Source: Cystobasidiomycetes sp. EMM_F5
Lineage: Eukaryota
Length of the DNA stretch: 34,502 bases
Direction: 5' to 3'
Assembly: GCA_051047955.1 (NCBI GenBank)
Contig: JBPGPT010000063.1
Span: 1 to 34,502, forward strand
The first letter of the stretch is position 1; every line of letters starts with the position of its first letter. Positions 2,925-33,947 of this stretch are shown piece by piece. The notes beneath the pieces were generated by a model. The model was not told where the DNA came from. It ran no database searches and saw only the letters and a list, made by a program, of their open reading frames with translations. A program made the position numbers and the translations under genes.

Positions 2925-3375
2925 GGTTCTTTAGCGGGGCCAGTGACTCGTGCTTGCTGGCAGGACTAGCAGTCTACTGTCAGATGTCGTAGAGCGGTAA
3001 TCGCAGAGTTATGATTGCACTGGTTGGAAGGAGAACAACCCAGACAGCTGGTGACATTTCCAATTCAAAGAACGAAGATGGCACTCCATCTTCCAATCAA
3101 TATCAAGGACACTCATGAAAGCTATGCTCAGTTGATGAAAGCAAAGGCAGTCAGCAGCATTAGGCGGCTCTGGCTCGCCATCTGAAAACAACCCCGCCCC
3201 GCTTGACAAGCCCTCGTCGGGCTGGCGGGCAGCTCTGCAACTAACAAGCAAGCACGCCGAAGCCAATGGGCAAGCTCTCAACCCGACGCGCCCTTCTTGC
3301 TTTGCATCTAACTCCTGGAAACCGCTTATCGCACTTTACACCCTGATATTATACGCCAACTGATCCATTTCGGCC

Positions 3376-12300: not shown

Positions 12301-13492
12301 GTCGTCACCCACTCGCGACAATGGTGGGGACCCGAGTGGACGGAAACGTTTGGCCAAAACCCCTTCGAGGGAGAGCCTGTTGTATGGGCGACAATCACAA
12401 GAAGTCGTCGTTTCACCTCGAAGCGATGTTTCTTCTCTTCGAGTGCCGGGTTCAGCCAGCTCAACCGCATCAATGACCTCGTCGCGGGCTGCCTCTTTGC
12501 GACAGGTATCTTCGAATGAAAGTCTGGGTCTTATCGCTGCAAGAATGGATGACTATCTGGATGCCGAGGAGATGCGAGAGCGGGCCCGCCTTAATCGAGC
12601 ATTTCTGCATGTCGAAATATTTCCAACTACGTTCTGTTTGTCCTTCAAGGTCAGTTGTTGCACATCAATCCTCAAATCGAGGTTTCAGACTAAATGCTGT
12701 AGTTGATGTAGGGATCTAAATCGACAAGCGTTCCAGATGTTTATGGTCTCATCTACAAATTCCCTCCGGTTGTCCATTGTAATCGTATCTGGACTTGTAA
12801 GCTTCGCTGCAACTCCCTCCATACGAGTCTGACTGTTTCTTCCATATGTAGACCTGGACTTGATTACGAGCGTGAAAAAGGGTGCGTGTAGGCGGATATG
12901 AATCGCATTGCAACCTGCTAACCTGTTCTGGATTTAAATAGATTGGAAAGCGAGTGTATGGGCGCAGGGTGCAGGTCTCCTTGGCCAAGTATTGACCACA
13001 GCCAGGCGTCCAGGAAACGTAAAGAACGTGGTACAACAACGTCTGCTCGGCCATTCGGGGAACGACAAGTCTTCACCTAGTCAGCCGACAGGATTTCGTA
13101 AAAAACGAACGTTCACAGGGCCATTCCGTCTTCGAGCTAGCAATAGTGGCGAGCCTGCAGCGATCTCTTCTGTGCAACCTGGCCCAACCTCTCCGCTTCG
13201 TGCGTCTGTGCTAGGTTCGCGTACAGACACTCCGCACGTTGCGTCACACAACGACAGCCAACCCTTTGTTGCCGGCTCAAATGAATCCGACAGCGATCAC
13301 GATACTTCCTCCTCTTCTTCGAGTCCTGCAGGCGACAGCGGGAATGATGTGTTGGATGACTATGCTGATCATTCCACCGTATTTGAAGACTCGCCAGGCA
13401 GATCCGGCAGTCTGAAGAATGCTATCGTCACGAGGTTGCGCCATCCTACAGGTGACTCATCCGCCACAGCCTTCACCGCCACAAGTTCGTAG
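3376..13492 (+). CDS. FMP27: FMP27/Hobbit/BLTP2-like bridge-like lipid transfer protein (~3,200 aa, multi-exon)
   Basis: An N-terminal hydrophobic anchor is followed by family-typical motifs: EDDPFETRINLIW, DTQYSLLIP, LRDFPLPLL, PPDPSERMGFWDK (GFWDK motif), LKGSRDPY, GAGFALCW, GFRSDFVHFS, HMTPNAFDHFWSWWHLF, SLPIRQG..F...KKFGK, VDLHQREE. Predicted introns: 4922-4980, 8818-8885, 9221-9279, 10133-10186, 10279-10341, 10658-10712, 12650-12711, 12797-12851, 12882-12941. Stop is TAG at 13490-13492. Confidence 0.9.
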
Positions 13493-13690: not shown

Positions 13691-14880
13691 TTACACTTGA
13701 ATGTCGCCGAGCTGAAGGCGAATAGCTTCGACTATATCGAGATAGGCGGTAGTAGCTGGACTATCAGGGTATTGATCGATGAAACTTGTTCCAAAGTCGC
13801 AAGATCTCCCAATTCGTGGGTCCAGAGGAACTTTGCCCAGCAATGTAAGGCTCATCTCTTTGCAGAGAGCTGCTGCTCCGCCGGTCGAAGGGATGAATAT
13901 ATCGCTGCGACCGGAACAGTCTGGGCATACGAAGCCCGACATGTTTTCGACTACGCCGAGGATGGGTATGTTGACCTTTCTGCAGAAGTCAATCTCCTTG
14001 CGCACGTCCTGCAAAGCAACCTCCTGAGGAGTAGTAACGACAACGGCACCGTCGATTCCAGACTCCTTGAGGTACTGGACGATGGACAAGTGTTCGTCTG
14101 AAGTGCCCGGAGGAGTGTCGATGATGAGGTAATCGAGATGCTCGCCCCAGTCTACATCTTTCAAGAATTGCTTGATGATGCCATTCTTTTTGGGACCGCG
14201 CCAAATGACAGCGTCTGAAGAAGACGGCAGCAGGAAGCCAATACTCATTACACAAAGGTTGTCCATGACGTAAAGTGGAGACCAGCCAGCGGATGTTGCG
14301 TGTAGTTTGGATTCTTGAAGGCCGAGCATGAGAGGAATGGACGGGCCGCAGATGTCGACATCCATGATTCCCGTCTGTAGTAGTCCACTGTCAGGCTGAT
14401 GTATAACCACACCCGGGTAGATCGCAGGCGCACCTGGAGATCTTCGTCGCTTGCCAGGGCCCAACCGAGAGCGGTAGTAAACGTACTCTTACCGACGCCA
14501 CCCTTACCGCTGAGAACTAGAATTTTCCGCTTGACGGACGACATGCGCGCCCTTACGGCTGGTAGGTCCGGATCCGGTCCCTTGGGAGCAGTCTGGCAGG
14601 CTTCCTGGTTGGGACATCCTTGGCACGCGGCCGCTCTGCCCGACTCGAGTGATTCTGTACCCGGACAGCTTTCCGGGGCGTTCTCTGGCTTGTCCTGCGT
14701 GCGAACGTGATGCGAGGGTTGAGGAATGCCGTGGATTGGGAGAATAGAGCTTGTCAGGAGAGTATTTCAATAACAATAATTTAAAGATGTGTCAGCACTG
14801 ACGGCGGGAAGAAGGGTTGCAGTCTGGCGGAGGGCATGGGGAGGCAGCACATCGTTGACTGCAAGAACTTGGGCGGTCAT
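13691..14880 (-). CDS. NBP35: Cytosolic Fe-S cluster assembly factor NBP35 (P-loop NTPase)
   Basis: Predicted complement(join(13691..14374,14434..14694,14803..14880)). It has the N-terminal Cys motif [10 protein letters not shown]...[11 protein letters not shown], which distinguishes Nbp35 from Cfd1. Also present: deviant Walker [37 protein letters not shown] and C-terminal FVCPDC. The first exon is less certain. Confidence 0.93.
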
Positions 14881-15038: not shown

Positions 15039-17408
15039 ATGCCATCCACCGAGTTCAGACTGGTCGAAGCCCCCGATGTCGTCGTCGACGAACTCGCAGA
15101 ATGGCTGGAACCCCCCGACATTCTGGCACTCGCAGCGACCTGCAGGCTGCTCTATGATATGCTCGTAGCGCCAGGAGGAATGTCGGAAGCGCTGTGGAAA
15201 CGCAGAATACGACGAGACTTGCGCTTTCCAGTGTGAATTTCCAGCAAATGGACGTCAAAGTGCTCAAACGCTGAAACGCTGAAACCCGCTCTAGCGAATC
15301 CACAGCGAGGCATTCCGGATGGCTGAATCTCTACTCAAAGATCTCCAGGCCGCACGTCTAGTGCGTTTCCGACCAGACTTGGCCGGACTCGCTACATTAT
15401 GACGTCGCAGACTGATACTGATATTCATGGACTATGAATCCGCAGCTTGTGGGGAGAAGCGACGCAGTCCCGCTTGGCAATGACTCGCACAGATCCGCGC
15501 GCAATGCATCTCGTTCGCACCGGTCTGCCCATCCCATGTCCACTCAGCCTGCCCAAACCTATCATCGATATTGTAGCGGGCGGATGGTAGGCCTTCGCTT
15601 CCTCGATTGGCAACATGAAGACGCTGCTGATCGGCAGATCGCCATTGTGTAGGTCTTTCCACGCGCTAGCTATCGACGGGACCGTACTGCACTGGGGCAC
15701 TCTGAACGGGGACTCCTTCGCTCCCTTCGTGCCAGCAAACTCGCCTGTACACCCTCTGGCACATCCTGGACGTGCAGCACCGACGCCAACTCTCCTTCGA
15801 GCGGAAATTCCCCCCATGCAGCGTATGGTATGCGGCCGAAGTCACGTCGTCGCCTTGGATTCTCAAGGCAATGTTTGGACTTGGGCCAATTGGGCAGAAG
15901 CTGCACAATTGAGTGCCGAATGGCTTGGACTTCATAGCGAAAGCACTGCTCGTTCGATCATCGCAGACATTGCAGCTGGATGGAATCTGTCCGCAGTCTT
16001 AATGACAGCCTCGCCAGGAGGCATAGGTAGAAGTGGTGGTGCAGGCCGCTCGCAAGCTCGACACCGTGAGGATGTGTATATTTGGTTTAGGCAATTCGCG
16101 TCTCCTAGCCTTCTGTCGTACATCGGTCACCCTACGAACGCTACGCCGATAGCGGGTCGAAGGGCTTGCTTCACCTGGCAGCCGCAAGCCCTATGTTTGC
16201 CTCCCATCCCGATCGCCGTGTCTGATGAAGGCATCAAGACTGCATCGCTATCGTCAGAGCAATATCCAACTATTAGCAAGATATCTGCCGGCGATAATTT
16301 TGTTTTAGCTCTGACTAATACGGGCGATGTGTACAAGATCGATGTCACACCGCCAATGCGTCGTCCCGCAGCATTTGACGACCCAGACGCTGGTCCGGAC
16401 GCGGAAGGGCGAGACGACGGCTCTCCCAGTGTGCGACAACTGGCTGACCTAGAAGACCTTTTCCTTACTGGACGTAGAACGTGGCGGCATCTACCAACTT
16501 TTTCGCAGTATAGTTCACGGGAGCAGGAGCTAGGAGAATTACGCGGGACTGGCAGAGACGCGACACCGACTGGCTATAATTCCAGCAAGGAGAAGCAGAG
16601 ACCGGCAGCCATCACTCACATCTCTTCCAATTTCCAGACTTTCTTCTGCATTGGACCAGGAGTGGTCTTGCAGGGCAACAAGGATGCCGATGAAACTACG
16701 CTACCGCTAAAGAAACCAGAGTTGCAGAATGCAGATGTGATACGCGTGGAGTGTGGTGACTATCACTACGGCGCACTTACGTCAACGGGTCGGCTCTTCA
16801 CTTTCGGACAGTTTAGCAATGGCGCCTTGGGTCATGGGCCGAACAATAGCCGTCTCACCAACCCTCTCCTTTCTTCGCCCACTGGTGCCGTCGAAGTCCC
16901 ATCGATGGTGCACTTCCATAACCTTCTTGACGATCCCGAAGGGACTGTAAATGCAGACGACGTTGAGTCGGAGTACTGCTTCAACATTGCATTAGCTGGG
17001 TGGGCTAGTGGAGCTCTGACAGTATCCTTGCATGACAATGTGAGGCAGCCTAGGCAGACCGAGGAGATTATGAGCGAAGGCAAGGTATGTTTTGGTGTCT
17101 GCTCAAGACTGCAAATCTCCCGCTTACATCGTATGCTTGGTAAGGACAGTCATTCTGCATCACTACCTAGGCCCGCGAGCGGTGCCGCGTCCGAAATGCC
17201 ATTCTCCATGGGAAGCGATGATGGCTGGATCCCACCGCTACCTGTGCTCCATCGCCCACTGTTACCAGACGGCACGGAACCCCTGACTAACCCGAGAGGG
17301 CGCGGTTTCCGATTTCCTATTCGCATTGGATACCCTGCACGCGGAATGTTCCGCGGAGGAGCTGGTCAGGGCCGCGGTGCGACGACTCACGATCAAGCTG
17401 AGGATTAG
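15039..17408 (+). CDS. SCF-associated factor 1 (Saf1)-like F-box + RCC1/BLIP-II repeat protein
   Basis: An N-terminal F-box-like segment (LVEAPDVVVDELAEWLEPPDILALAATCRLLY...LWKRRIRRDLRFP) is followed by spliced ESTARHSGWLNLY...YLWGE. RCC1-type repeats follow: DIVAGGW-SFHALAIDGTVLHWG, CGRSHVVALDSQGNVWTW, ISAGDNFVLALTNTGDVY, CGDYHYGALTSTGRLFTFGQFSNGALGHG. Introns fall near 15233-15293, 15361-15445 and 15587-15651, with a probable in-frame one at 17085-17144. Confidence 0.85.
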
Positions 17409-18516: not shown

Positions 18517-20002
18517 ATGGCCAGACCAACGGGCAACGAAAGCGGAACGCAACGACGGCCGCCGAGCTCGTCGCAGCCGCTATTCCAGCCAGCTGGGGGG
18601 TCTTCTTCGTCGCCGTCGCGAAGTCGGACAACTGCGACAACGTCAATCAGGATAGCTGGGGCAGCTTCTGGCTTCAACGCGCAGGTGTCGCCCATGTTTG
18701 CGTCGAAAAGACCGGCAGCCGCAGCCAACAATATGGCTTCGACGAGCAGAGTAACCCTCGATACGCCCAGGCGCGATATCCCAAGGCAACAGCCAAGTTC
18801 GGGACAAAGATGTACGGTTGTATTGATGCTCAGCTAATGCGAGATGACAATTTCGACGCGTCCGCTGAACTGGTTCTCCACAAACCTCGTTCAATACAGC
18901 TCAGGTCGCTCGCAAGTCTGCCAGTGGAAAACCCCGCAAGGTTCTGCCCAAGACTCGACGTAAGCTGCTCAGAGTGTGCGTTAGGTTGACCGAGTTGACG
19001 GAGGTGCGATGCCTTGCGCGATATACTGCGATAAATACAGCCGGAGACCCTCTCCCGCCTCCTCCGACTGTACTGCGTCAACAAGCAAATGCCGCTGTAC
19101 CCCGGCGACGGCCTTCTACTCCTGAATCCGTCGAAGACAGCTGCGAAAGTACAGAGGCTTTTCCCCAACGAAGCCGTTACAACAGGACTGCAACCAACAA
19201 TATCGACGAAGAGCGGGAAGAGGTGTCAGACAGCGCGGATGATACCGATACAAGGATACGAGCGCACTTGCGGAAGAGACAGGAGGAAGAGCAGGAGGAG
19301 TACGATAGGCAACAACGCCGACTGCAAAAGCAGCAGCGTCGGCAGCAGCAGCAGCAGCAAGAACCTCCGGCTCAGGAACGTCCGCCCAAGCAGACTTCTA
19401 CAGCAGCGGGCAGAGCTAGAGCGAGGGGAGATCAAGGTGCCGAGGAGAGGCCACAACAACAGCCGGAAGGCAGAGGTCAACCGAGACAAGCTGCACCTCG
19501 CAAGCCGCACAGGTATAAACCGGGTGCAAAAGCACTAAAGGAGATCAGACGGTATCAGAAAACGACAGATCTTCTGCTGCGCAAGCTGCCTTTTGCAAGA
19601 TTGGTGAGCCCTAGTTTCGGCGTCACGCCATCACACAACTTGACGTCGATGTCTGCTGTACTTCAGGTGCGCGAGATTGCCTTGGAACTAGGTCCGCAGC
19701 GTGGAGACGGCCTGGGCCTGCGGTGGCAATCTTCTGCGTTATTGGCGATGCAAGAAGCGAGTGAGGCGTGAGCACACAATCAAAGCGTCGACGCTCATCC
19801 ATCAGCTCATTACTGTTTTTCATAGCTTTCTGGTCCATCTCTTCGAGGATGCCAATCTATGCGCAATACATGCGCGCAGGGTGACTATCATGGACAGAGA
19901 CATGCAGTGAGTTGCCTCCACCAAGCTGTTCTGGTGCTTTTGACCGATTATTCAATAACGGAAAGACTGGCAAGACGCATTCGGGGCAATTGGGGCATGT
20001 AG
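18517..20002 (+). CDS. CSE4: Centromeric histone H3 variant CENP-A/Cse4 (~378 aa, long N-terminal tail)
   Basis: Predicted join(18517..18811,18900..18959,19041..19603,19667..19767,19826..19906,19966..20002). The histone fold reads [102 protein letters not shown]. CenH3 diagnostics are LPFARL (not LPFQRL), a longer loop 1, LRWQS (not LRFQS) and VHLFED. The start (MAR...) and tail exons are less certain than the fold. Confidence 0.9.
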
Positions 20003-20202: not shown

Positions 20203-21489
20203 TTAGGCCAGGACGCGTTCTCGAGCAGGACCCTCCATTTCGTATTCGACTTCGACTCGCGGACCAGCTCCTCTGCGAGGTTTCTTGCTCGCCGCAGGCA
20301 AGGCTTGCTTTCCTTTGGCCTTGCTGCTTGCTAATTTGCGCTTCTTAGCCCTACGGCTTCCATCGTCATCCGATTGATCGTCCTCATCGCTGCTACTATC
20401 CTCAGCGTTAGCGTTGTCGTCGTTGTCGTTATCCAAATCCTCGAGATCCTCAGCATCGCTCTCGTCAAAATCCTCGATGTACTCGCGGTCTTGCTCGTCG
20501 AATTCTTGCTCCAATTCACCCTCATTTTCAGATTCTAGATCCTCCTCATCCAGGCTGTCGTCGTCTTGTTCGAGTTCGAGAGCCTCCTCGCCCTCGCGCT
20601 CGGCTTCCAGACGTTCTCGTTCCAACACAGCGTTCCAGACATCTTCATTGACGTTGAGGGGCATGTCTCCGTATGCTCTGCTCTTCAGTCTTGCCACAAG
20701 CTCCTTTTCAAGATTCTTCTCCAGCTTGGCAGCAGCCAGAGCTTTCGTCTCGCGTATCGCTTCACGTCTCTCTAGCTTCTTTTTGATGGGGACTAGTTTG
20801 CCTCCTTCCCTCATGCGCAACTTGCGCATCTTTATCAGATACTGTACAATCTTTGTCGTCCGTTGTTTGCACTTGTGTATGAGAAACTTGGGCCAGTACT
20901 GTAGCTCCGTGTCAATCTGCTCCAACGCCTTGCCATAGTCGTTTGACAATTTGACCCTCTCCCACATCTTGGATGGCAAGTGTGCCCGCTCTGGCGTCTT
21001 CATGAAGAGATAGAGCGCGCCTGCGTGTAGTGATGCTTCCTCAGCTGTCGCAAAAGGGTGCATGCAGCATTACGCACCTTCCTGCTCTCGCACGGTAGCG
21101 TACTTGTTGTTTGCGAGTGGGCACGACTGCCTGTTGCACATTCCCGACACATTGTAGACGTTTCTGCAGAAATTCTGGGTGACGGTTCTGGTGAGATTGG
21201 AGGGAAGAGTGATTGAATGGCTCTTCATCGTCAGCCTGCCCTTTTCAACGACGTCCTCGAGCAAGATTCGCCCACTTGATCTTGAATGCGCAAAACGAGC
21301 CTGTCCCGGGCGGGCCAATGGCTTGCCAGACCTTTTCACACGGATACGCGGCAAGTCATTAATGGGCCACGTCGCTCCAAAGTAAGAAATCTCGCGGCAA
21401 ATTACCAGCTCCTCTGCAGAGTTTGCCTGGGTTTTTTACAAGTCAGTCTGGGCAGCCAGCACGGCGGTTTGGACGTCGTTGCTGACCAT
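20203..21489 (-). CDS. MAK16: MAK16 pre-60S ribosome biogenesis factor
   Basis: Predicted complement(join(20203..21020,21078..21187,21276..21331,21406..21426,21487..21489)). It gives [89 protein letters not shown]...HKCKQR...acidic tail...RVEVEYEME. Confidence 0.93.
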
Positions 21490-21938: not shown

Positions 21939-24900
21939 ATGACGGTCAAGACCGCGTACGCCATCCCGCAGCTGGCGCCCGAAAGTCTGGCAAATATCAA
22001 GGCATTGCTGCGAATTGTCATTCTAGGAGCTATTGCCGGAGCTGCAGTCGCATCGAGGCTATTTGCCGTTGTTCGGTTCGAGAGCATCATTCATGAGGTG
22101 GGTATGCATATTGCTGCAGTGTAAAGCGATGCTGAAAGCCGCTGCCTCTGCAGTTTGATCCGTACGTTTTCAGTTGAAGAAGCGGGCGTCAGCTAACATC
22201 GTCTAATACGCTTTACGACTGAATGTAGATGGTGCGTACTACCTCCAAAGCGGACGGCTGTCCGCCAGCTGGCTGTTCTGACTCTGCCCGAAATCCTGTC
22301 CTCCAGGTTCAATTATCGTGCAACAATGACTCTGACGTCTGGCGGTTTCTACGAATTCTGGAATTGGTAAGTCCTGTTATTTGCCATTACATTGATCTAA
22401 GTCGACGTCCAAATGCAGGTTCGATGAGACTGCTTGGTACCCTCTAGGTCGCGTTGTGGGCGGAACAGTCTATCCAGGTGAAGAATATCGAGGACAATGC
22501 AGATCATAGCTGAAGCTGGTCACATGCACACCATAGGCATCATGGTCACTTCTGGTGTCATCTATAATGTCTTGCATTTCCTCAACATCCCCGTCAACAT
22601 TCGCGATGTCTGCGTCATGTTGGCACCTGCTTTCAGTGGTCTCACTGCATAGTGAGGCTAGTAAAGCGAGATCCTAATGGCTGGACTGACTTCTTTCCTA
22701 CAGTGTCACGTTTCTTTTAGGCAGGGAATTGGGTCGCGACGAGGAAGGGAAAGGAGGCGAAGGAACAGGCTTGTGGGCTGCCCTGTTCATCGGCATTGCA
22801 CCTGGGTACATCTCTCGCTCAGTGGCCGGATCATACGACAACGAAGCGATTGCAATCTTCCTGCTCATGTTCACCTTTTACCTTTGGATAAAGGCACTCA
22901 AGGAGGGGTCTGCCCTCTACGGATCCATTACCGCTGTCTTTTACTTCTACATGGTCGCTGCTTGGGGCGGGTACGCTTTTATCACAAACATGCTGCCAAT
23001 GCATGCCTTCGCCCTCCTTTGTATGGGTCGCTACTCGCAGCGGCTATACGTGTCCTACTCGGCTTTCTATGCAGTAGGCACGTTGGCTTCTATGCAAGTA
23101 CCGTTCGTTGGGTTTCAACCGATGCGCACGTCCGAGCACATGTCGGCGCTCGGAGTATTTGGATTATTGCAGCTCGTGGCATTTGCAGAGCTCGTGCGCG
23201 GCCTGGTACCCAGCGCCCAGTTCAAATTACTTTTGCGAACATCACTTGTCTTATCAGCAGTCATTGGGGCGGGTGCAATTGCCCTGCTGACCAGCAAAGG
23301 CTGGATTGCTCCATGGACTGGACGCTTTTACTCGCTGTTCGACACGGAATACGCGAAGATACACATTCCAATCATTGCATCGGTCTCGGAACATCAGCCT
23401 ACAGCCTGGCCTTCTTTCTTCTTCGATCTCAACCTTTTGATTTGGTTGTTCCCGGCCGGTATCGTTTTGTGCTTTCGAACGCTTCGGGAGGAGCACGTTT
23501 TTATCATCATTTATGCTCTGGTTGGCTCGTACTTCGCTGGTGTTATGGTGCGACTCATGTTGACTCTCACCCCCTGTGTCTGCCTGTCGGCTGCAATGGT
23601 CGTTGGCAAGCTTGTGCAAACGTACTTAGATCCAGTCCTTCCAGGAGCAGCGGCAGATGTCAGATCAGTCGAAGGTACACGGAGCGAAGTTGTACCCAAG
23701 GACGTGCTGGAGGACGATGCTTCAGCTGTGTCTACGAGCGTGCCGGATGCTCCGCTGGCTACAGCCACTCCCACGAAGCGCAAATCAAAACCTCAAGCTC
23801 AGAGTACCGATTCATACTCCGTCCCTCTAGCGAGCAAAGCAAACTCTGCCGAAGCTGCACTACGCGGCTTGGATCTCCGTGCCGCTGTTCTTCTGTTTTT
23901 CGGCGGCCTTTTGGGAATCTTTGTCCTCCACTGTACTTGGGTCACATCCAATGCCTACTCGTCACCATCAGTCGTCTTGTCAAGTAGAGGGGCAGACGGT
24001 AGTAACATCCTTATTGACGATTTCCGGGAAGCGTACTACTGGCTGAGGAGGAATACAGCCGAAGATGCGAAGATTCTATCGTGGTGGGATTACGGCTATC
24101 AGATTGCAGTAGGTCGATCCTCGCGCGATGTGCACTCCCGCTGATATCCTGGCTGTAGGGATTCGCGAACCGGACGACCCTCGTTGATAACAATACCTGG
24201 AACAATACACATATTGCGACTGTTGGGAAAGTCCTGGCCACTCGGGAAGAGGTAGCATACCCCGTTCTCAAAAAGCACGACGTAGATTACATTCTCGTCA
24301 TCTTTGGTGGACTGATCGGATACAGTGGCGACGGTGAGTTCAATGGGCAACTTAATTGAAATCGCAGCTAAACGAAGATACGACCATCTTCTACACTACT
24401 AACATGACGTATTCAGAGTGCGTTGTACTTCTCCTTGTCAAAACGCGTGCTCCACTGACGATTTTTTGTTTTTTTGTGCTGGAAACTGCGATATCTTCTA
24501 ATTTATAACGTTCTGGGCACGCAACTGACTCGTAAACGGTCGTTTCAGCCTAAACAAGCTGTTGTGGCCGATAAGGATTGCGCAAGGCGTCTTCCCTGAC
24601 GAAGTTGATGAAAAAAACTATTTCACGCCCCGAGGAGAATATCGAATGGATGCGGAGGCTACGACAACAATGCGAGAGTCGTTGATGTACAAGATGAGCT
24701 ACTATCGCTTCACTGAGCTGTTTGGAGGGCAGCCAGCAACGGACCGCGTTAGGAATCATCAAATTCCGTCCCCTGGTCCCGTTCTGGACGCGTTCGATGA
24801 AGCTTTCACTTCGGAGAACTGGATTGTCAGAATCTACAAGGTGAAGAAGGAGGACACGCTAGGTCGTGATCATAAATCTGCAAATGGTTTCGACTCCGGC

Positions 24901-24960
24901 AGGCGGAAGAAGAAGGTCAAGGCTGCTGGCTCTGCGGGGCGGAGACGAAGCAGTGTGTAG
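21939..24960 (+). CDS. STT3: Oligosaccharyltransferase catalytic subunit STT3
   Basis: Predicted join(21939..22097,22154..22161,22229..22231,22307..22366,22419..22477,22537..22651,22704..24108,24159..24333,24417,24549..24960). Motifs: [103 protein letters not shown]. Confidence 0.96.
24397..24403 (+). promoter_or_regulatory. Consensus branch point TACTAAC upstream of the predicted 1-nt STT3 exon
   Basis: A perfect TACTAAC ends 13 nt before the acceptor G (24416) in TTCAG|A|GTGCGT. Confidence 0.8.
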
Positions 24961-25133: not shown

Positions 25134-26198
25134 ATGTCTTCTGGCGGGAGCGTCAGCGGAGTAACACGCAGGCCGCCAGTGGTCATTCCGACCAACGCAT
25201 CGACGTCCGCTCCCAGCGCTGGCAGCTCGCGTATCGTCGTTCCCAGTACCGCAGGCTCTTCTGAAACCTCTGGCGCCTCAGCTGGCAGCGCAGGCGCTAA
25301 TCGCATCCAGAGACCGACGACTAACAGTATACTCGTCAATCCGTGTCAGGTCGGGCTCGTTTTGCCTAGATTGATTGAGGTAGACTGACGCCGGCAACAG
25401 AAAGGCAATCCGATAATCAACTATATCCGCAACGTAGCGTGGGAGTACGACGATATCCTCGTTGACTACTCGGTCGGAGCTACGACCGGCGTGCTGTATC
25501 TCAGGTGGGCACCCAGAATTGCAGCTCGTCAGGATCTCGTCTCTGAGAAACATCGTTCAGCCTACGATACCATCGACTGCATCCAGAATACGTGCATGGA
25601 CGTATCGCCAAGCTGGGTAACGCCTACTCTTTGCGCGTCCTCCTCGTGTCGGTCGACGTCGATGACCACCAAGAAGTGCTCAAAGAGCTCACAAAAGTAT
25701 CCGTCATCAACAATCTGACCATTATGCTGGCTTGGTCGTGTGTCCGCCTTGCATTGCATTGCGCTGTGCATGACAGTGCTGACTCGCCGATGGTGTAGGT
25801 CGCAAGAAGCAGGAAGATATCTCGAAATATACAAGTCGTTTGAGCGAAAGCCCCCGGACCTTATAAAGGAAAGACGCGATAACGATTACATGTCACACAT
25901 GAATGCAATCATGACTAATGTTCGGGGCATCAACAAGACAGATGTCGTTACACTCACTAGCAATTTCGGGGTAAGCCTATCTGAAAAGGGTTGCAGATGT
26001 CGGCTAACGTAAAGCTCGGCGTTCCTTCAGTCATTTCGTAACATTGCACTCGCTTCAGCCGACGACCTCGTAGGATGTCCAGGTTTGGGAGAAAAGAAGG
26101 TGAAGCGATTGCGCGAGAATTTCACTGCTCCTCTCATGGTCAAGAAGCGAAAGAGCAACGCGGAAAAGCGTGCAGAAGCTGGAAATGCATTAAACTGA
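25134..26198 (+). CDS. ERCC1: DNA excision repair protein ERCC1/Rad10/Swi10
   Basis: The spliced product reads ...NSILVNPCQ-KGNPIINYIRNVAWEYDDILVDYSVGATTGVLYLS-LRYHRLHPEYVHGRIAKLG...RVLLVSVDV...[29 protein letters not shown]...VRGINKTDVVTLTSNFG-SFRNIALASADDLVGCPGLGEKKVKRL (C-terminal HhH2). Four GT-AG introns are predicted. Confidence 0.93.
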
Positions 26199-27806: not shown

Positions 27807-28696
27807 CTATGACATTAGGCGTATGTATGCTGAAAGTGGAGTAGTATGAGATTGAGTACCCTTATCACGCACAAATGGATGCCACTTACCGAGTAACAAT
27901 GCACCGATACCTGTAGTAGAACCAACGATGTATTGAAGGATGGAAAACTTTGCGCTCTCCATGGAACCTAAAGAGCCATAAGTGATCTTTCAGCAATTGA
28001 CGCTTAATGCGTACTTACCACGAATCATGGCAATTTCGCCTTCTATACGCGTTTCGGTTTCCTTGATCTTGCTGTCGCGCATAGACAGCTCGTCTCTCAA
28101 CCGACCCTTCTCCAGATTCAGATCGAGTCGTACACCTGCTTGCGTTCGGCCAACCTGCGGGCGTACATTTCTATTAGAAGATGGGTACAACGTACCTGAG
28201 CATGGCCATGACCTACCTCTTCCCGTAATCGCTGTTTGAGCCTCTCCACCTCGTTCATGAGCCGCTCGTTCTCCGCCTTGAGCTCTGCAAAGTCCTGTTT
28301 CTCCAGGAGGGTAATCTCGCTTTTGAGCTTCTGGAAATCGACCCTCTGCGTGTACTGGTGCTTTTCCTGCTCTGACCGCGTCACCAGATTGCTCGTCATG
28401 GTTCGTATGCTCTCTTCAACAACTTCCTGGAGGGCTTCCATGATTCCGACAGCCTGTTTGCGTGTGAGGCCCTCTCGCTCGACCCTGCTGACGAATTGGG
28501 CCGTGTCGAAGGAATACTGCGCTCGTCTTGGGCGCGTTAGATGTAGAGAGCGTCTAGAGAGTATCGTCTTGGGTTTGGAGCGTTCAAAGGCTGCGGTTCT
28601 GGCTGGGCATGCAGACTTGAGCTCGCTCGAAGCTGGCAACGCGGCCCAGGATCGTGCCAGCGCTCGGAGTGACGGCGGCATGGATGTTTTCGACAT
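27807..28696 (-). CDS. Mitochondrial DUF1640 coiled-coil protein (FMP32/MCUR1/CCDC90-like)
   Basis: An Arg/Ser-rich presequence-like N-terminus is followed by YSFDTAQFVSRVEREGLTRKQAVGIM, YTQRVDFQKLKSEI, LKQRLREE-VGRTQAGVRLDLNLEKGRLRDE and a C-terminal TM segment KFSILQYIVGSTTGIGALLL-AYIRLMS*. Three introns are predicted. Confidence 0.9.
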
Positions 28697-28810
28697 TTGT
28701 AATGATCCAGGAATTGAAGCTCAATCGTCGTCTTGTGCGCTCGAGTTGGTCGGAAGGTGAGCCGCCAAAGGTCCTTGCAGCTTGGATTCCGGACAACCAA
28801 TGTCGAGAAA

Positions 28811-30616
28811 ATGGATGTTACGCTGCCGTCGCACAAGATAAAGAGTGTGCTCTGACTGGAATGGCAGCACTGAAAAGCGCTCCAGCGTCCTGACTTTTTT
28901 TTTGGTCTTGTTGTGTCGCAAACAGCCTTTACGAGAAGCCTAGCATGCCTGACGAGATTCGGAGACGAACTGGCCGTCCACGCCAGTCTGACCAGTGTCA
29001 GCTGATGTTTCTTTTTGGCGGCTAACGGATGGCTGACTGCGTTTTGGTGTCACTTTGTGCAATATACCGCCCCGCGTCCAGCTCAAGCTATCCACAATCT
29101 CAAACACCCGCTCGGCGTTCTGTCTCTTTACCTTTGAAGCCGCATACTTTTCAAAGTACCGCATAACCGCCGCATCCCGCGATGGGCCGCCGGCATGCCA
29201 GATGCAACTTCTCGGAAAGGTTGGCCTGCTCGACTGAGCTAGTTTTGCGCTAGAATTGACATGTGTGTGTTGGGTCGCGACGCAGACTCTACACGACATT
29301 TTCAAGCAAAGAACTATCGCATCAGCAAACAAAATTGTCATACACGTACCTGCCAGCGACTTTGACCAGGCAGAGCATCATCGGGCCCGCAACGACGTCG
29401 ACAGTGACGAAGTACCGGCTGCCGAGTGCCGGTTGACAGTCACAATATATCATTCACATGGCGTCAAAAAGACGTATCGCCTGACCTATGCAGCTGGACC
29501 GTGCATAGTGGCAGTTGCCGACAAGAACAGCTGCGCTTCCCACTTCACTGCATCTCCGCGCCTGATCAAAGACTGGACAGACCATTTTATGCTCGGAAAG
29601 CATGGAACTGATGAAGTTACCTTTTGGTGTACCGGACAGACGTGTAAAATAAAAAGCTTCGAAGACGCCTCAGCTGCGGCAGAGTCTTCTCGGCGCAACG
29701 GTTCTGCCAAAGATCAGCTCGGTGGTAAACAGTCCATCTCAACGACTCTCACGGTAGTGACAGACGAGTTTGACGCATACGATATGGGAAACGAACAAGC
29801 TCTCATAACGATTGCGCTGAAAGAGATCAAAGCGCTCCTGGACTTCGCCATAGGCATGGGCGATGTGCTGCATTGGCACTTTGACCAAGGAGGACAGTGA
29901 GTATATCGCGCAAGGTCATCAGCAGGCACTTCGACCTGACCAGACTCCCCAGGCCGTTGATAGTAACGCTGGAAAGTGATGGCTTACAGATCGAATTCAT
30001 CATGAGTACAAATGAAGAAGACCCCGCTGGCATACAAAGGGAGCAGGACGTCAAACCTCGCTTATCGCAGACTAGACTGTCTAGTGTCAGGGTGGCCAAC
30101 CCAGAGCAGCGATCGAATCAAGCATCGGCGACACAGACGCCAGCACCTTCCGGCAGGCCGCAGAGCACACCGAAGGAGCCGCCAGCTGGCCGACAAAATG
30201 GCAGGGCTCAACAACCCCTGTTTGCTCCGCCTGACGAAGACGGAGACAACGACGAGGATATGTGGAATGAGATGGACGCAGCTGACCCAACATTCAGTCA
30301 AGTTGCGATGGATCTAGAAATGACGGTGTCGCAGCATCCGGAGCCCTCGGCCCGCTCTGCTGGTAACGAAACAGACGAAACAGACAGAGCCGACGCATCC
30401 GCAATCGGGCACACTGCATCCATACAGCCGCTGCCAATTGCTCGGCCGCAAATGATCGACATGAGTCTGGATGAGAGCGCAAGCGAAGGCTCGGAGACCG
30501 ATCAAAGTGACACGCCCCGCAAGCGGCCGCGAAAGGTATGTATTCGTCAACAACAGGCTAGCAGCTGCTGATTTGATGATAGACCATTGACCTAGGCGTT
30601 ACGTAGGAGACTGTGA
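28811..30616 (+). CDS. RAD9: 9-1-1 checkpoint clamp subunit Rad9 (S. pombe Rad9/human RAD9A/Ddc1 family)
   Basis: The spliced product reads MDVTLPSHKIK-TFTRSLACLTRFGDEL...LKLSTISNTRSAFCLFTFEAAYFSKY...CQMQLLGK-TLHDIFK...CRLTVTIYHSHGVKKTYRLTY...EFDAYD...ITIALKEIKALLDFA...FDQGGQ-PL. This matches the PCNA-like Rad9 pattern and ends in a disordered acidic tail with a basic PRKRPRK motif. Confidence 0.88.
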
Positions 30617-30756: not shown

Positions 30757-33700
30757 CTAAGAAGCCTGGTAGGTGACATCTGTAAAAAGCTTCCACGCCT
30801 TGGTACTCAATGCCTGTCCGATAGATCGTGCAGACACCTGATCTTCGCCGGCCAATAAAGTCTGGCGCATGATCCAGCATTCGCCGTAAGTACCCTTGCC
30901 TTTGCCTGCCGCCCGCTCAGCGGAAGTCTGGTCGGCATCCGCAGCGATCGCACGTTGCAAGTCTGAGAAAAAGAAGGCAGGCGTGGGGAACCTCTCGACG
31001 AAACGCTGCGTAAGCTCCGGCGACATCTGTTGAATTGAAACTAGTAGATGCGATAGACATCGAGCGCTGTCAGCTATTGTCTCCTACCAAATCTACACTT
31101 GTTAACTTACGAACCATCTTTGCCCACCCCGCTGCGAGAGTGTGCGGTTTCTGATTGAATCGCGAATGTGACTCGAATGTCGGACAGAAGCTTTTGGTGG
31201 GGTAGTCCTTCCTCAGACGCTCAGTGGTCGGGAGGAAATTGCTTTGTGTGAGCGCCTTGTCCGGCAGCATGTAAAGCGTAGTGTACTGTCAAAATGTCTC
31301 TGTGCGTAAGACCGCATAAGACTGCTGATGATCGTCTACACACACCTTGTATATTTCGGCGAGCACGTGTGTCATGCTGGCCAAGTGTTGGCAAACTTCC
31401 TTGCGAGAATTTGCGACTTGGACTTTAAATCCACTGTGCAACGATTTGAGTATAGCTACGTGGTAGCTGTAGCAAGCCCAAACTTACTCGGTCACCTGCA
31501 ATGATGATTTGATGGTGGCAATCTGCGCAGAATAGTAATTCTCCTTCTTGCTGAGATCGTAGTTTTCGATGAGATACGTCTACGGGCAGCGGCATCAGTA
31601 ATCTATTTCCGTTTGCTGCTCACGCCAAGCGCACTATTCTGGATATGCCGCTCTTCTTCATACGATTCTTCTGCTCCGAATACCGGCCATCTACAGCACG
31701 ACATTTTAGCCCCAAGTCAGACGATTCTCAATGGATCACACACCCTTCAAGCTATCTATCAGATCATCTGTACGCTTGCGCTCCAGACAGCAATCTAGAA
31801 CGAGCTCTCTGGCTGTGGTCTTGCATCGCGCGATCCAGATAGCGTCGCTGGTTGCCAGGACTCGGGATTCCCATACAATCCCTTGCTTGATCAGCAACTT
31901 TCCAAGTTCCTTGCCTTTGGTCACGGCTTTCTCGCGCATATCGAGGAGAAGGACGATGTCGTATGAGCCCGCTGGAAAGGTGACCAAGTCTTTGGGATTG
32001 ATACTGAGCGGTGAGGTGGACTCATTGAGGTACCCATAAGCAGCAGTTGCAACAGTTGTGGAAACAGGTCTGAAGGATGCGCTTTGTTGAGAAGAGGTTG
32101 CACCGATCGATTGCTCCCCATTTCCAGTCGTCTGAGCGCGACGCGCAAGGGCAGCCTGTAGAGACCGGTTGACAGGCGCAACCGGACGATCGGTCTCGTT
32201 TTCCGTATCCGTGTCGAGGTCAATCACTTGCGGTTGTGGCAGTTTGGTCGGCTTCCCCGATCGAGCGGCCTCGTGTTTAGTCGACGGAGACGAAGTCTCA
32301 GGTGGCAGTATGGGACGCGCTGAGGTCGAGGGAGCAGGCTTTCGGGCTGGTGACTTGGCATCCGTGGGACGATTGAGGGGAACAGGACGAGCTTCCCTTT
32401 GAGCAATTGGCGGATCAAAGCCAGGCGCCGTCTCAAAGCTACGAGCAGCCGGTATGAGTGCAGAAAACGTCTGCTCTCCTTGTCGACCGCCCGGATTATT
32501 GAATGGAGTAATGGCTGAGAGAAGCTTGGTAAATACGTGATTGCGCTGAGATTCGGGAAACTCAATCAGAAACTGCGGTGTATCTAGCGGAATGCTAGAT
32601 CAGCGAAATGCCGATAATATAGTAAGTTTGACACGCACAGTCGTTTTCATCGATGGAGACATCGGCATCATCGCGCTGTTTCACCCGTTCATGCCGTATA
32701 TTGAGGTAAAAGTAGAAGAATGGCGCTGTGCTCGCAGAAGTCCACAATAAGTACCTGGTATGACCTGGCTTCGACATTGATACGTACCCGCTAGATTCGA
32801 GTCAGATTGCCGTGGTCTAACGGTCGCCGCAGCACGCTGTGTGCCGTTCACTTGCTCTGATGCTCTGCTGTGCGTGGTCGACTGTGTACGACGCTTCGGA
32901 CTGTCGTGCTCAACGTGTGCATTGCCATCTGTATCGTCATCGGATGATGCAACATTGGCAAATACCGGCAACGCCGCCCTTGCCTGCTCATCGAAATGAG
33001 GAGCAGCCTTTGCGTTCTGTACAGCTTTGCGTGCTATCTTCCAGCCTGTGCACGACATGGATGGGGTTAGGGCGCGCGCACGAACGACGTAGGTTGAATG
33101 TACCTACCATCGTACGTTATGCGGTACAGGACGGGCGCCCTGCCCTTCTTCTCGACGAGACCCTTCTTGCACAACGTCTTGTTCATCGATGACCACCCCG
33201 AGTAGCCATAGTGGCCGGCACCGCCTGTCGACTTGTCTTGGTCGTTGAGCGAGTCGCCGTCGTCCTTGAAGAATGCGTCTGCCCTGTCTACAATGTGCTG
33301 CTCGGTCTCCCAGGCGCCAGTACCGTAGGAAGCGAGGCCAACGAGGATGGCGTACGGGCCCGACTTTGCTCTTGGAATGTATGGCTTTTTCGGTCTGTCC
33401 TTCTTCATGGGGGATGTGTCTACGTCGTTGTTGGGGTTGTCGTTTGGCTCGTCGTCGTCCTTCTTGTCGTCGTCGTCGTCGTCACCATCGCCCATCTTCT
33501 TTCGCTTCTTGTTGGTCGTGCCCGTCTTGCTCTTTATCGTCTTGTCTGCTTTGTCCTGCCACGTCTCCACCTCGGCGACGGGCATGTCGAGGCCGTGCTC
33601 TCTGCAGTACCTCTCGAGACGTTCTGTGAGGTACTGAATCGTCTTTTTGCCCACTCCTTCGAGGGTGGATGCCCCGCTTGGGTGTGCTATCGGAACTGGA

Positions 33701-33947
33701 CAGGCCATGAACGACTTGCGCGCCTTTTGGATTGCCTGTAGTATGAAACGGTCAGCGATGTTTCAATCTGCCTCACTGCACCCGCCTTTGCAAAGTACTC
33801 GCTGCGGGTGCTGTCCACCTCGCTCTCCCACTCTTGGAGCCATTCGACTGCATATGGTATATGGTCAGTCTGGTCTGTGTTGTGAATGGTAATCAAAGAC
33901 TTACTCCACAAGGGATTGCCAGGAAGGAGTCGCTTCTTGGGGGCCAT
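30757..33947 (-). CDS. MUS81: Crossover junction endonuclease MUS81
   Basis: It has an N-terminal HhH (AIQKARKSFMACPVPIAHPSGASTLEGVGKKTI) and a winged helix (KKPYIPRAKSGPYAILVGL...YSGWSSMNKTLCKKGLVEKKGRAPVLYRITYDG). The ERCC4 nuclease reads YDIVLLLDMRE...SDAIWIAR...LDCCLERKRTDDLIDSLK-DGRYSEQKNRM, containing ERKxxxD. A C-terminal HhH reads SIGQALSTKAW. Many GT-AG introns are predicted. Confidence 0.93.

What the first reader, a model, noticed from the sequence alone, without database searches (positions are those of the whole stretch)
24334..24548. Single-nucleotide exon (A24417) builds the DxxK Asp of STT3; skipping gives an immediate stop
Seen: the upstream exon ends ...TAC AGT GGC GAC G|gtgagt (24333) and the last exon begins tttcag|C CTA AAC AAG CTG TTG TGG (24549). 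Joining them directly gives GAC GCC TAA, a stop. The conserved STT3 sequence GYSGDD(I/L)NK needs exactly one extra A (G+A+C = Asp). Inside the unusually long 215-nt interval lies TACTAAC-atgacgtattcAG|A|GTGCGT: a perfect branch point, an acceptor, one A and a donor. This splits the interval into introns of 83 and 131 nt, and the second has its own CTGAC branch site at 24525-24529. Established: this Asp starts the DK (DxxK) motif that helps bind the sequon Ser/Thr, and 1-nt exons are very rare and usually missed by annotation. Inference: an essential N-glycosylation gene depends on a 1-nt exon, probably through ordered (recursive-like) splicing, and skipping could act as an on/off or NMD-type switch.
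Basis: partly seen in the sequence, partly recalled or inferred. Interest (0 to 1): 0.92.

Follow-up and report, generated by a model that had tools for sequence, protein, structure and literature searches.

The report
One-base exon in fungal STT3 gene
An essential glycosylation gene of an unnamed basidiomycete fungus can only be read in frame if a single base, A24417, is spliced in as its own exon, a rare but already documented kind of gene structure that no RNA data could confirm here.

Summary
Window 21939-24960 (+) is a complete STT3 gene. Exon 8 ends at G24333 and the last exon starts at C24549. Exactly one residue of the Mixia STT3 protein (an Asp) is left uncovered between them, and a direct join gives a stop.

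A24417 has complete splicing signals on both sides:
- Intron 1: GTGAGT, then TACTAAC, then CAG.
- Intron 2: GTGCGT, then CTGAC, then CAG.

With this base the CDS is 2397 nt and reads GYSGDDLNK. That composite appears in 0.02% of shuffles and only once in the window.

New here:
- The same gene also needs an 8-nt and a 3-nt exon.
- An unnamed fungal fragment (P0395) has an ordinary 56-nt phase-1 intron at the same codon position, followed by "AC". So intron 1 looks old, and intron 2 looks like a gain one base downstream.

Two rivals remain. One is a weak donor (GTTCAA, 24338) that would insert a Gly seen in none of the homologues. The other is a base missing from the assembly.

No RNA run, read coverage or close relative's DNA was available.

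One-base exons are already described in Arabidopsis, Fusarium and Coprinopsis, so this is a new member of a known kind.

The parts
21939..24960 (+). STT3 gene (catalytic subunit of oligosaccharyltransferase). It has 10 exons if A24417 is counted. The CDS is 2397 nt, giving 798 aa plus a stop.
   Evidence: Pfam PF02516 matches exon 7 at E 2e-86. The gene is colinear with the 797-aa Mixia osmundae STT3. The exon model comes from my spliced alignment.
24159..24333 (+). Exon 8. It ends ...GYSGD plus G, the first base of the next Asp codon (phase 1).
   Evidence: Translation. tblastn shows 81% identity to Mixia residues 600-657.
24334..24416 (+). Intron 1, 83 nt. Donor GTGAGT at 24334-24339, branch site TACTAAC at 24398-24404, acceptor CAG at 24414-24416.
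   Evidence: Sequence and intron table. An ordinary phase-1 intron sits at the same codon position in P0395 and in 19 other clusters of short STT3 fragments.
24417..24417 (+). Proposed 1-nt exon, A. It is the middle base of the Asp codon G|A|C, equivalent to yeast Stt3 D583, the first residue of the DxxK motif.
   Evidence: It is the only one of 27 single-intron and 113 two-intron stop-free solutions that gives GYSGDDLNK. Shuffle test. Alignment to solved structures. There is no RNA evidence.
24418..24548 (+). Intron 2, 131 nt. Donor GTGCGT at 24418-24423, branch-site candidate CTGAC at 24525-24529 (20 nt from the 3' end), acceptor CAG at 24546-24548.
   Evidence: The 3-nt exon at 22229-22231 is followed by the same donor hexamer.
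24549..24960 (+). Last exon. It starts with C, the third base of the Asp codon, and then reads [13 protein letters not shown]... through to the stop.
   Evidence: Translation. tblastn to Mixia residues 659-793. Its first residue aligns to I584 of yeast Stt3, chain 6c26_A.
24338..24343 (+). Rival donor GTTCAA. Joined to the acceptor at 24548 it gives a single 211-nt intron and inserts one Gly (GYSGDGDLNK).
   Evidence: Found by my spliced alignment and by enumeration. It has T at +3 and no G at +5.
22154..22161 (+). 8-nt exon, TTTGATCC. It encodes Phe, Asp and the first two bases of Pro in the conserved FDPW stretch.
   Evidence: Spliced alignment to P0006. Flanking signals. Relatives have an 18-nt exon here instead.
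22229..22231 (+). 3-nt exon, ATG. It supplies the last base of Pro and the first two bases of Trp in FDPW. It is flanked by TAG on one side and GTGCGT on the other.
   Evidence: Spliced alignment. Intron table.

Best explanation
A24417 is a genuine single-nucleotide exon of a functional STT3 gene. It lies between two complete, independently recognisable spliceosomal introns.
- Intron 1 (24334-24416) has donor GTGAGT, branch site TACTAAC and acceptor CAG.
- Intron 2 (24418-24548) has donor GTGCGT, branch site CTGAC and acceptor CAG.

Shown here: the signals, the one-base phase mismatch, the invariance of the residue, and a phase-1 intron at this codon position in other STT3 genes.

Inferred:
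- Both introns are actually spliced, one after the other. Either order leaves an ordinary substrate for the second step. Two spliceosomes can hardly sit on a one-base exon at once.
- Intron 1 is an old phase-1 intron, and intron 2 was gained one base downstream of it in this lineage.
For: 1. Frame. Exons 8 and 10 match Mixia STT3 up to residue 657 and from residue 659 onward. One Asp is left over, the phases are 1 and 2, and a direct join gives a stop. With A24417 the whole CDS is 2397 nt, a multiple of three, giving 798 aa against 797 in Mixia.

2. Uniqueness. Of 27 single-intron and 113 two-intron stop-free solutions, only this one gives GYSGDDLNK.

3. Invariance of the motif.
- 107 of the 107 homologues that reach it read G[YF]SGDD[IL]NK with no insertion. 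The other 15 of the 122 proteins do not reach the motif.
- 73 of 80 metagenome loci encode SGDDxNK contiguously.

4. Signals. The composite of YAG-A-GTRNGT with CTRAY upstream arose in 41 of 200000 shuffles. It occurs once in both strands of the window.

5. Comparative evidence.
- The short ORF call P0395 is fungal-type and 75% identical over exon 8.
- It reads GFSGD, then G plus 18 further read-through codons ending in Gln, then TSTSSCG.
- TSTSSCG is one of only 192 possible out-of-frame readings of (D)INKFLW(M).
- That decodes as an ordinary 56-nt phase-1 intron at the same position, followed by AC.
- Nineteen further clusters also show the G|GT read-through.

6. The same gene needs an 8-nt and a 3-nt exon to encode the conserved FDPW. 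The 3-nt exon is followed by the same GTGCGT donor.

7. Intron length. The seven other STT3 introns are 50-75 nt, so a single 215-nt intron would be an outlier.

8. Precedent.
- Coprinopsis cinerea has 13 exons of 1 nt in its long-read annotation (PMC12230235, passages).
- Fusarium CYP621A has an AG|G|GT exon with SRA reads (PMC12940212, passages).
- Arabidopsis APC11 has a constitutive single-nucleotide exon (PMC4674806, abstract).
Against: - No RNA. No RNA run was listed, and no contig of the four runs laid crosses 24311-24635. The assembly at the two boundaries is not independently confirmed either.
- No relative with AG-A-GT could be examined. None of the 80 loci has an intron at this position. 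The two closest genomic contigs, those behind P0004 and P0009, were not retrievable.
- My spliced aligner does not score splice-site strength. At its default penalties (intron 12, gap 9) it preferred the single 211-nt intron from the GTTCAA donor in 3 of 3 queries. By my arithmetic the margin is 3 score units.
- The introns of 83 and 131 nt are both still longer than the other seven.
- The residues just after the junction are atypical. Leu stands where 251 of 252 homologues have Phe, and Pro where 250 of 252 have Met. This stretch is therefore not under textbook constraint.
- The U1 binding site of intron 2 overlaps the acceptor of intron 1. That is a steric difficulty, inferred and not measured.
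Confidence: 0.8

Rival explanations
1. There is a single phase-1 intron of 215 nt, and the frame problem is not biological. Either one base (an A before C24549, or after G24333) is missing from the assembly, or this copy carries a real one-base deletion and is a dead or strain-specific allele.
For: The phase-1 donor position is that of an ordinary intron in P0395, whose next exon begins with AC. A lost A at the acceptor would recreate exactly that structure. No reads cover the site. The protein shows two rare substitutions right after the junction.
Against: - The internal TACTAAC..CAG-A-GTGCGT would then be a coincidence, seen in 41 of 200000 shuffles, or 10 of 200000 with CTAAC.
- The intron would be 215 nt, against 50-75 nt for the other seven.
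- Neither boundary lies in a homopolymer.
- All other exons are intact and colinear with Mixia STT3.
- The two ORF transitions of the Hobbit gene that I checked by eye can be bridged by GT-AG introns, with no sign of indel errors.
- The few contigs of run X1 that match do so with 0 other letters elsewhere in the gene.
- The C-terminal region is no more diverged than that of P0005.
- That fungi have a single essential STT3 is recalled, not tested here.
Confidence: 0.1
2. There is one 211-nt intron that uses the donor GTTCAA at 24338 and the acceptor at 24548. The protein then carries one extra Gly (GYSGDGDLNK) and keeps DLNK.
For: The solution is in frame and stop-free with a GT-AG intron. It was the top-scoring path of my aligner at default penalties in 3 of 3 queries, and it is listed. 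It needs no unusual exon.
Against: - The donor matches the consensus only at GT. It has T at +3, and lacks G at +5 and T at +6.
- In this gene, 7 of 7 other donors have a purine at +3 and 6 of 7 have G at +5.
- In 22 introns of related STT3 loci, +3 is A or G in 21 and +5 is G in 22.
- It would have to beat a full-consensus GTGAGT four bases upstream. That GTGAGT sits at the conserved phase-1 intron position.
- The Gly insertion is seen in 0 of 107 homologues and 0 of 73 loci.
- It leaves the internal signals as a coincidence.
Confidence: 0.05
3. The strong sites are joined directly (24333 to 24549) and the gene is rescued or regulated at another level. Possibilities are a -1 ribosomal shift at GCC giving Asp-Ala-Leu-Asn-Lys, editing, or production of a truncated protein only.
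For: The donor at 24334 and the acceptor at 24548 are both good sites.
Against: - A stop follows one codon after the join, and there is no slippery heptamer.
- The result would replace or remove the DK-motif Asp together with 137 C-terminal residues that align well to solved STT3 structures.
- No RNA family or unusual fold lies in the region: 0 Rfam matches and a fold z-score of 0.53.
Confidence: 0.03

Closest known systems
One-nucleotide exon of Fusarium CYP621A P450 genes (PMC12940212; passages read)
   Same: Both are fungal genes with an AG|N|GT exon that supplies the middle base of a codon in a conserved motif. In both, a phase-1 and a phase-2 boundary cannot be joined otherwise. In both, the interval is more than twice the usual intron length (139 nt against a median of 56 there; 215 nt against 50-75 here). 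Automatic gene models fail in both.
   Different: There the base is G, the residue is the Gly of PKG, and the host is an ascomycete. The exon is conserved in 20-24 orthologues and confirmed by SRA reads. Here the base is A, the residue is the Asp of DxxK in an essential housekeeping gene, and the host is a basidiomycete. Here there are no RNA reads and no orthologue DNA with the same structure.
1-3-nt exons in the long-read annotation of Coprinopsis cinerea (PMC12230235; passages read; supplements not opened)
   Same: It is also a basidiomycete. It has 13 exons of 1 nt, 57 of 2 nt and 27 of 3 nt, and leaving them out mostly creates premature stops. This shows that basidiomycete spliceosomes handle such exons.
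   Different: That is a genome-wide catalogue resting on full-length transcripts. I did not see which genes are involved. Most loci fetched here encode the motif contiguously, and those loci are not assigned to taxa.
Constitutive single-nucleotide exon of Arabidopsis APC11 (PMC4674806; abstract and outline read)
   Same: A single base serves as a constitutive exon of a housekeeping gene, and annotation missed it.
   Different: It is a plant gene, shown experimentally with GFP fusions in Arabidopsis and rice.
Ordinary phase-1 intron in the same Asp codon of other STT3 genes (P0395 and 19 other clusters)
   Same: The donor position is the same, after the first G of the second Asp codon. P0395 has a GTGAG-type donor and a CAG acceptor.
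   Different: In P0395 the next exon starts with AC, so no extra exon is needed. In the window only A follows, and then a second intron.
Recursive splicing (zero-length AG|GT ratchet points) and fungal stwintrons (both recalled from memory; none of the 15 papers listed holds the word stwintron)
   Same: Two splicing reactions occur at immediately adjacent sites and probably have to happen one after the other.
   Different: In those cases nothing is retained, and the second site is only created or completed by the first reaction. Here one base is kept, and both introns have complete donor, branch and acceptor signals from the start.

Membership tests
STT3 / GT66 oligosaccharyltransferase catalytic subunit | The Pfam STT3 membrane domain is present. 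| tested here: met
   PF02516 scores E 2e-86 and 291.5 bits on exon 7.
STT3 / GT66 oligosaccharyltransferase catalytic subunit | The gene is colinear along its full length with a named STT3 and contains the WWDYG motif. | tested here: met
   tblastn of the 797-aa Mixia STT3 covers residues 1-53, 78-599, 600-657 and 659-793. WWDYGYQIA is present. Residues 54-77 are recovered with the 8-nt and 3-nt exons.
STT3 / GT66 oligosaccharyltransferase catalytic subunit | The DK motif DXXKXXX(M/I) is present (consensus as given in PMC3703281, passages). | tested here: inconclusive
   D-L-N-K is obtained only if A24417 is spliced in, or with the rival donor. The third signature position is Pro, not Met or Ile; 1 of 252 homologues also has Pro there.
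Single-nucleotide exon (Arabidopsis APC11, Fusarium CYP621A, C. cinerea type) | The flanking exons have incompatible phases and lack exactly one base relative to intron-free homologues. | tested here: met
   Intron-free homologous loci number 73 of 80.
Single-nucleotide exon (Arabidopsis APC11, Fusarium CYP621A, C. cinerea type) | AG|N|GT lies inside the interval, with donor, branch site and acceptor for both flanking introns. | tested here: met
   The chance estimate is 41 of 200000 shuffles.
Single-nucleotide exon (Arabidopsis APC11, Fusarium CYP621A, C. cinerea type) | The inserted base restores a conserved residue. | tested here: met
   The Asp is present in 107 of the 107 homologues that reach the motif. 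By alignment it equals yeast D583.
Single-nucleotide exon (Arabidopsis APC11, Fusarium CYP621A, C. cinerea type) | Mature mRNA contains the base at the junction. | not testable with these tools
   No RNA holder was listed. No contig covers the site.
Single-nucleotide exon (Arabidopsis APC11, Fusarium CYP621A, C. cinerea type) | AG-N-GT is conserved in orthologues. | not testable with these tools
   No genomic DNA from the window's own clade (P0004, P0009) could be fetched. Protein-level ORF calls start downstream of the junction.
Recursive splicing / stwintron | The second splice site is formed or completed only by the first splicing reaction, and no nucleotide is retained. | tested here: not met
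   Both introns have full signals in the primary sequence, and one base must be retained for the frame.
Regulated unproductive splicing (NMD switch) | A skipped isoform exists, varies with conditions, and is degraded. | not testable with these tools
   There are no RNA data. Only the predicted consequence of skipping, a stop at 24551-24553 in the last exon, follows.

The most novel reading that the evidence does not exclude
This lineage gains introns right beside existing ones. An ancient phase-1 intron in the DK-motif Asp codon acquired a second intron one base downstream. The conserved 18-nt FDPWFN exon of relatives was likewise cut into 8 nt, 3 nt and the remainder. As a result, one essential gene carries three exons of 8, 3 and 1 nt, each inside a conserved motif (FDPW, DxxK). 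Because the donor of intron 2 overlaps the acceptor of intron 1, the two must be removed in a fixed order. Failure of that order (skipping of A24417) would give a truncated, inactive product. That would allow output of the oligosaccharyltransferase catalytic subunit to be tuned by splicing.
Probability: 0.15. Interest if true: 0.65.

Novelty: new member of a known kind. Interest (0 to 1): 0.45.

Why it matters
If real, this is an essential, single-copy-type housekeeping gene whose reading frame and conserved DK-motif Asp depend on a one-base exon. The gene also contains 3-nt and 8-nt exons. Automatic annotation would call it truncated, frameshifted or a pseudogene, so genome completeness and gene-loss claims for such fungi would be wrong.

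It adds a case with a plausible origin: a new intron gained one base from an old, widely shared phase-1 intron. It also offers a compact natural substrate for asking how close a 3' and a 5' splice site can lie. The kind of structure is already documented with RNA evidence in Arabidopsis, Fusarium and Coprinopsis, so the advance is incremental.

Tried and rejected
- **RNA evidence.** The look-up of sequencing runs listed 5 runs and no RNA holder; the best share of words was 0.15. Read laying of X1-X4 gave only short pieces. Some match with 0 other letters elsewhere in the gene. None lies between 24311 and 24635, and none of the listed joints concerns the site.
- **Whole genome.** None is held for this window.
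- **Relatives' DNA.**
  - None of the loci has an intron at this position.
  - The contigs behind the closest proteins, P0004 and P0009, are not among them.
- **C-terminal ORF calls of relatives.** P0324 (on a contig of the same length as P0004's) and P0345 start at an internal Met, so they say nothing about the acceptor.
- **More introns for splice-site statistics.**
  - A pattern-based intron finder was too biased to use.
  - A representative search with the MUS81-like exon found only distant homologues and was not taken further.
  - Two Hobbit-gene introns were placed by eye only.
- **Repeats.** The introns have no introner-like copies in the window or in the loci.
- **RNA in the long intron.** There are 0 Rfam matches and no unusual fold, z 0.53.
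- **Pseudogene signs.** The C-terminal identity to relatives, 62-70%, is like that of P0005.
- **Earlier notes of this scan.** None were found by place, words or sequence.
- **Literature.** 0 papers hold STT3, microexon and fungi together.
- **Not used.** Structure prediction, complex prediction and the protein atlas were not needed for this question.
Full report
**What is there**

Window 21939-24960 on the + strand is an STT3 gene.
- The 459-residue translation of exon 7 matches Pfam PF02516 (STT3) at E 2e-86.
- It has 7298 homologues at E <= 0.001 among 8000 scored candidates.
- The best named homologue is Mixia osmundae STT3 (P0006, 69% identity). The closest of all is unnamed (P0004, 79%).
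- In a 24-row tree the window pairs with P0004 (support 100/99), then with P0005 and P0009 (100/99). This unnamed clade sits beside Mixia with weaker support (87/84).

So the organism is a basidiomycete without a close named relative. No whole genome is held for it.

**The observation**

- Exon 8 ends with G24333, followed by GTGAGT.
- TACTAAC lies at 24398-24404 and CAG at 24414-24416.
- A24417 is followed by GTGCGT.
- CTGAC lies at 24525-24529 and CAG at 24546-24548.
- The last exon then starts with C24549 and reads LNKLLW....

tblastn with Mixia STT3 aligns residues 600-657 to 24159-24332 and residues 659-793 to 24550-24954. Exactly one Asp is unaccounted for. Joining the strong sites directly gives GAC GCC TAA. 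With A24417 included, the ten exons sum to 2397 nt, which is 798 codons plus a stop, against 797 residues in Mixia.

**Is it chance?**

I shuffled the interior of the 215-nt interval 200000 times.
- AGAGT fell in a usable place in 10.2% of shuffles.
- With a YAG acceptor, a GTRNGT donor and a CTRAY box within 40 nt upstream, it occurred in 41 shuffles (0.02%).
- With CTAAC it occurred in 10 shuffles.
- On both strands of the 34.5-kb window, YAG-N-GTRNGT occurs 6 times. The version with an upstream CTRAY occurs once, at this site.

**All alternatives**

I enumerated every GT/GC-AG solution that leaves an open frame into the last exon. There are 27 with one intron and 113 with two introns and an inner exon of up to 40 nt.
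- Only 24334-24416 / A / 24418-24548 reproduces GYSGDD-LNK.
It gives one 211-nt intron and an extra Gly (GYSGDGDLNK).

My own spliced aligner does not score splice-site strength. It preferred that rival at its default penalties in 3 of 3 queries, by what I calculate as 3 score units. This has to be weighed rather than ignored.

Evidence against the rival donor:
- It agrees with the consensus only in GT.
- The seven other donors of this gene all have a purine at +3, and six have G at +5.
- In 22 homology-defined introns of related STT3 loci, +3 is A or G in 21 and +5 is G in 22.
- It would have to outcompete a full-consensus GTGAGT four bases upstream.
- The Gly insertion occurs in none of the 107 homologous proteins that reach the motif (15 of the 122 examined do not reach it).
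- It occurs in none of the 73 of 80 metagenome loci that encode the motif contiguously.

**Comparative evidence**

None of the 80 related loci has an intron at this position.
- L070 and L076 have an intron four bases upstream (GG|C), and five loci end before the region.
- DNA of the window's own clade could not be fetched.
- ORF calls on relatives' last exons start at an internal Met.

Short ORF calls homologous to exon 8 were informative. Of the 120 listed:
- 90 run straight through DDxNK.
- 10 end earlier or break elsewhere.
- 20 read ...D-G and then unrelated residues. That is what translation through a G|GT donor gives.

One of the 20, P0395, is of fungal type. It is 75% identical to the window's exon, and its best match is P0005 of the window's clade at 85.7%, with the next match at 83.9%.
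- It reads GFSGD, then G plus 18 further read-through codons ending in Gln, then TSTSSCG.
- TSTSSCG is one of only 192 heptapeptides that (D)INKFLW(M) can give when read two bases out of frame.
- So this organism has an ordinary 56-nt phase-1 intron at exactly the window's donor position. It ends in CAG and is followed by AC and then the Ile-Asn-Lys codons.
- The other 19 clusters are of the GYSSD/GYASD type, which by my recollection is more like animal or plant STT3A.

The donor at 24334 therefore sits at a widely shared intron position. In the window the matching acceptor (CAG at 24414-24416) is followed by the expected A. A second intron then stands where the relative has C. I infer that intron 1 is old and intron 2 was gained one base downstream.

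**Context in the same gene**

The spliced alignment of the N-terminus needs an 8-nt exon (22154-22161) and a 3-nt exon (22229-22231) to encode the conserved FDPW. The 3-nt exon is followed by the same GTGCGT donor. Six of the eight related loci tested have an 18-nt exon FDPWFN at this place. L054 and L056 gave identical results; L076 has no introns there, and L058 lacks the region. So this lineage has split an already small exon further. Very short exons are evidently processed in this gene.

**Function of the residue**

The first residue of the last exon aligns with I584 of yeast Stt3 (chain 6c26_A and related entries). The split Asp therefore corresponds to D583, and the Lys to K586.

The DK motif is given as DXXKXXX(M/I) in PMC3703281. 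There the Lys is described as part of the pocket for the +2 Ser/Thr of the sequon (passages). The Asp is the first signature residue.

The window's motif is unusual in two places. It has Leu where 251 of 252 homologues have Phe, and Pro where 250 of 252 have Met, with one other Pro. Otherwise the C-terminal region is no more diverged than that of P0005, so I see no sign of decay.

**Mechanism**

Shown:
- There are two complete sets of signals.
- The branch A of TACTAAC lies 13-14 nt from the first acceptor.
- The CTGAC lies 20 nt from the second acceptor. Both distances are within the 14-32 nt seen for candidate branch sites in the other introns.

Inferred:
- The introns are removed one after the other, because the U1 site of intron 2 overlaps the acceptor of intron 1.
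- Either order works. Removing intron 2 first gives intron 1 a normal downstream exon. Removing intron 1 first gives intron 2 a normal upstream exon.
- Nothing recursive is needed. Unlike ratchet points or stwintrons (recalled from memory), no site has to be created by a first reaction.

Skipping A24417 would place a stop at 24551-24553. That is about 400 nt before the normal stop and lies in the last exon. Whether that isoform exists or is degraded cannot be said here.

**Error and pseudogene rival**

A base missing before C24549 would recreate the P0395-type intron, so this rival is coherent. Against it:
- It leaves the internal signals as a 0.02% coincidence.
- It makes the intron three to four times the length of the others.
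- Neither boundary is a homopolymer.
- All other exons are intact.

I give it about 0.1. I give the weak-donor rival 0.05, other rescues 0.03, and the 1-nt exon 0.8.

**What is known**

Single-base exons have been described before.
- Arabidopsis APC11 (PMC4674806; abstract).
- Fusarium CYP621A, with SRA reads. It is called there the second example and the first in fungi (PMC12940212; passages).
- The long-read annotation of the basidiomycete Coprinopsis cinerea, which has 13 exons of 1 nt (PMC12230235; passages; supplements not opened).

A full-text search for STT3, microexon and fungi together found no paper. This is therefore a new member of a known kind. It is notable for the gene (essential, with a conserved motif residue), for the company of 3-nt and 8-nt exons, and for the visible route of origin. 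It is not confirmed by RNA.

**What led nowhere**
- No RNA run was listed, and no read covers the site.
- There are no introner-like repeats.
- There is no Rfam family or special fold in the long intron.
- This scan holds no earlier notes on the region.

Noticed in passing
window 22154-22161 and 22229-22231: STT3 needs an 8-nt exon (TTTGATCC) and a 3-nt exon (ATG) to encode the conserved FDPW after SIIHE. Related basidiomycete loci have a single 18-nt exon, FDPWFN, at this place. The window's lineage has therefore split it further.
   Followed up: yes
window 24559-24561 and 24568-24570: Two near-invariant positions of the DK-motif helix differ here. Leu stands where 251 of 252 homologues have Phe, and Pro where 250 of 252 have Met. 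One other sequence, P0406, also has Pro. The Pro falls on the third signature position of DXXKXXX(M/I).
   Followed up: partly
proteins P0395, P0405-P0416, P0430, P0441, P0452-P0454, P0461, P0465, P0468, P0493, P0500: Twenty of 120 short STT3 ORF calls read through a G|GT donor after the first Asp of GDD. A phase-1 intron in this codon is therefore shared by a fungal-type sequence and by many GYSSD-type sequences, which are probably non-fungal. It may be an old intron position.
   Followed up: partly
L070 1879-1969 and L076 2570-2644: Two related loci have an intron four bases upstream of the window's, in phase 2 of the Gly codon (GG|C GAC GAT). It is a different, neighbouring intron position in the same motif.
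   Followed up: partly
window 8818-8886 and 9221-9279: Introns of the Hobbit/FMP27-like gene, placed by eye at ORF transitions. One has the donor GTCCGT (pyrimidine at +3, with G and T kept at +5 and +6). The other has GTGAGC. I saw no sign of frameshift errors at these two transitions.
   Followed up: partly
window 3638, 4290, 18282 (+) and 34293, 5528 (-): These are five further YAG-N-GTRNGT sites, none with an upstream CTRAY box. Two lie inside a long open frame of the Hobbit-like gene. By a rough estimate of mine, about four such sites are expected by chance in this much sequence. I did not examine them as possible 1-nt exons.
   Followed up: no
whole window: Gene content by Pfam on open frames:
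- WD40 protein (-, about 1570-2830)
- Hobbit/FMP27 family (+, 3364-12703)
- NUBPL-type P-loop NTPase (-, 13694-14766)
- RCC1-repeat protein (+, 15591-17405)
- histone-fold protein (+, 18869-19768)
- Mak16 (-, 20206-21435)
- STT3
- Rad10/ERCC1 (+, 25389-25795)
- CCDC90-like protein (-, 27993-28720)
- Rad9 (+, 29238-29897)
- MUS81-like ERCC4 nuclease (-, 31739-33762)
   Followed up: partly
tree: The window's STT3 forms a well-supported clade with three unnamed sequences (P0004, P0005, P0009). The clade sits next to Mixia osmundae with moderate support, and apart from the Microbotryomycetes-type yeasts, the Melampsora row and the Agaricomycetes rows in the tree. It looks like a poorly sampled basidiomycete lineage.
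   Followed up: partly
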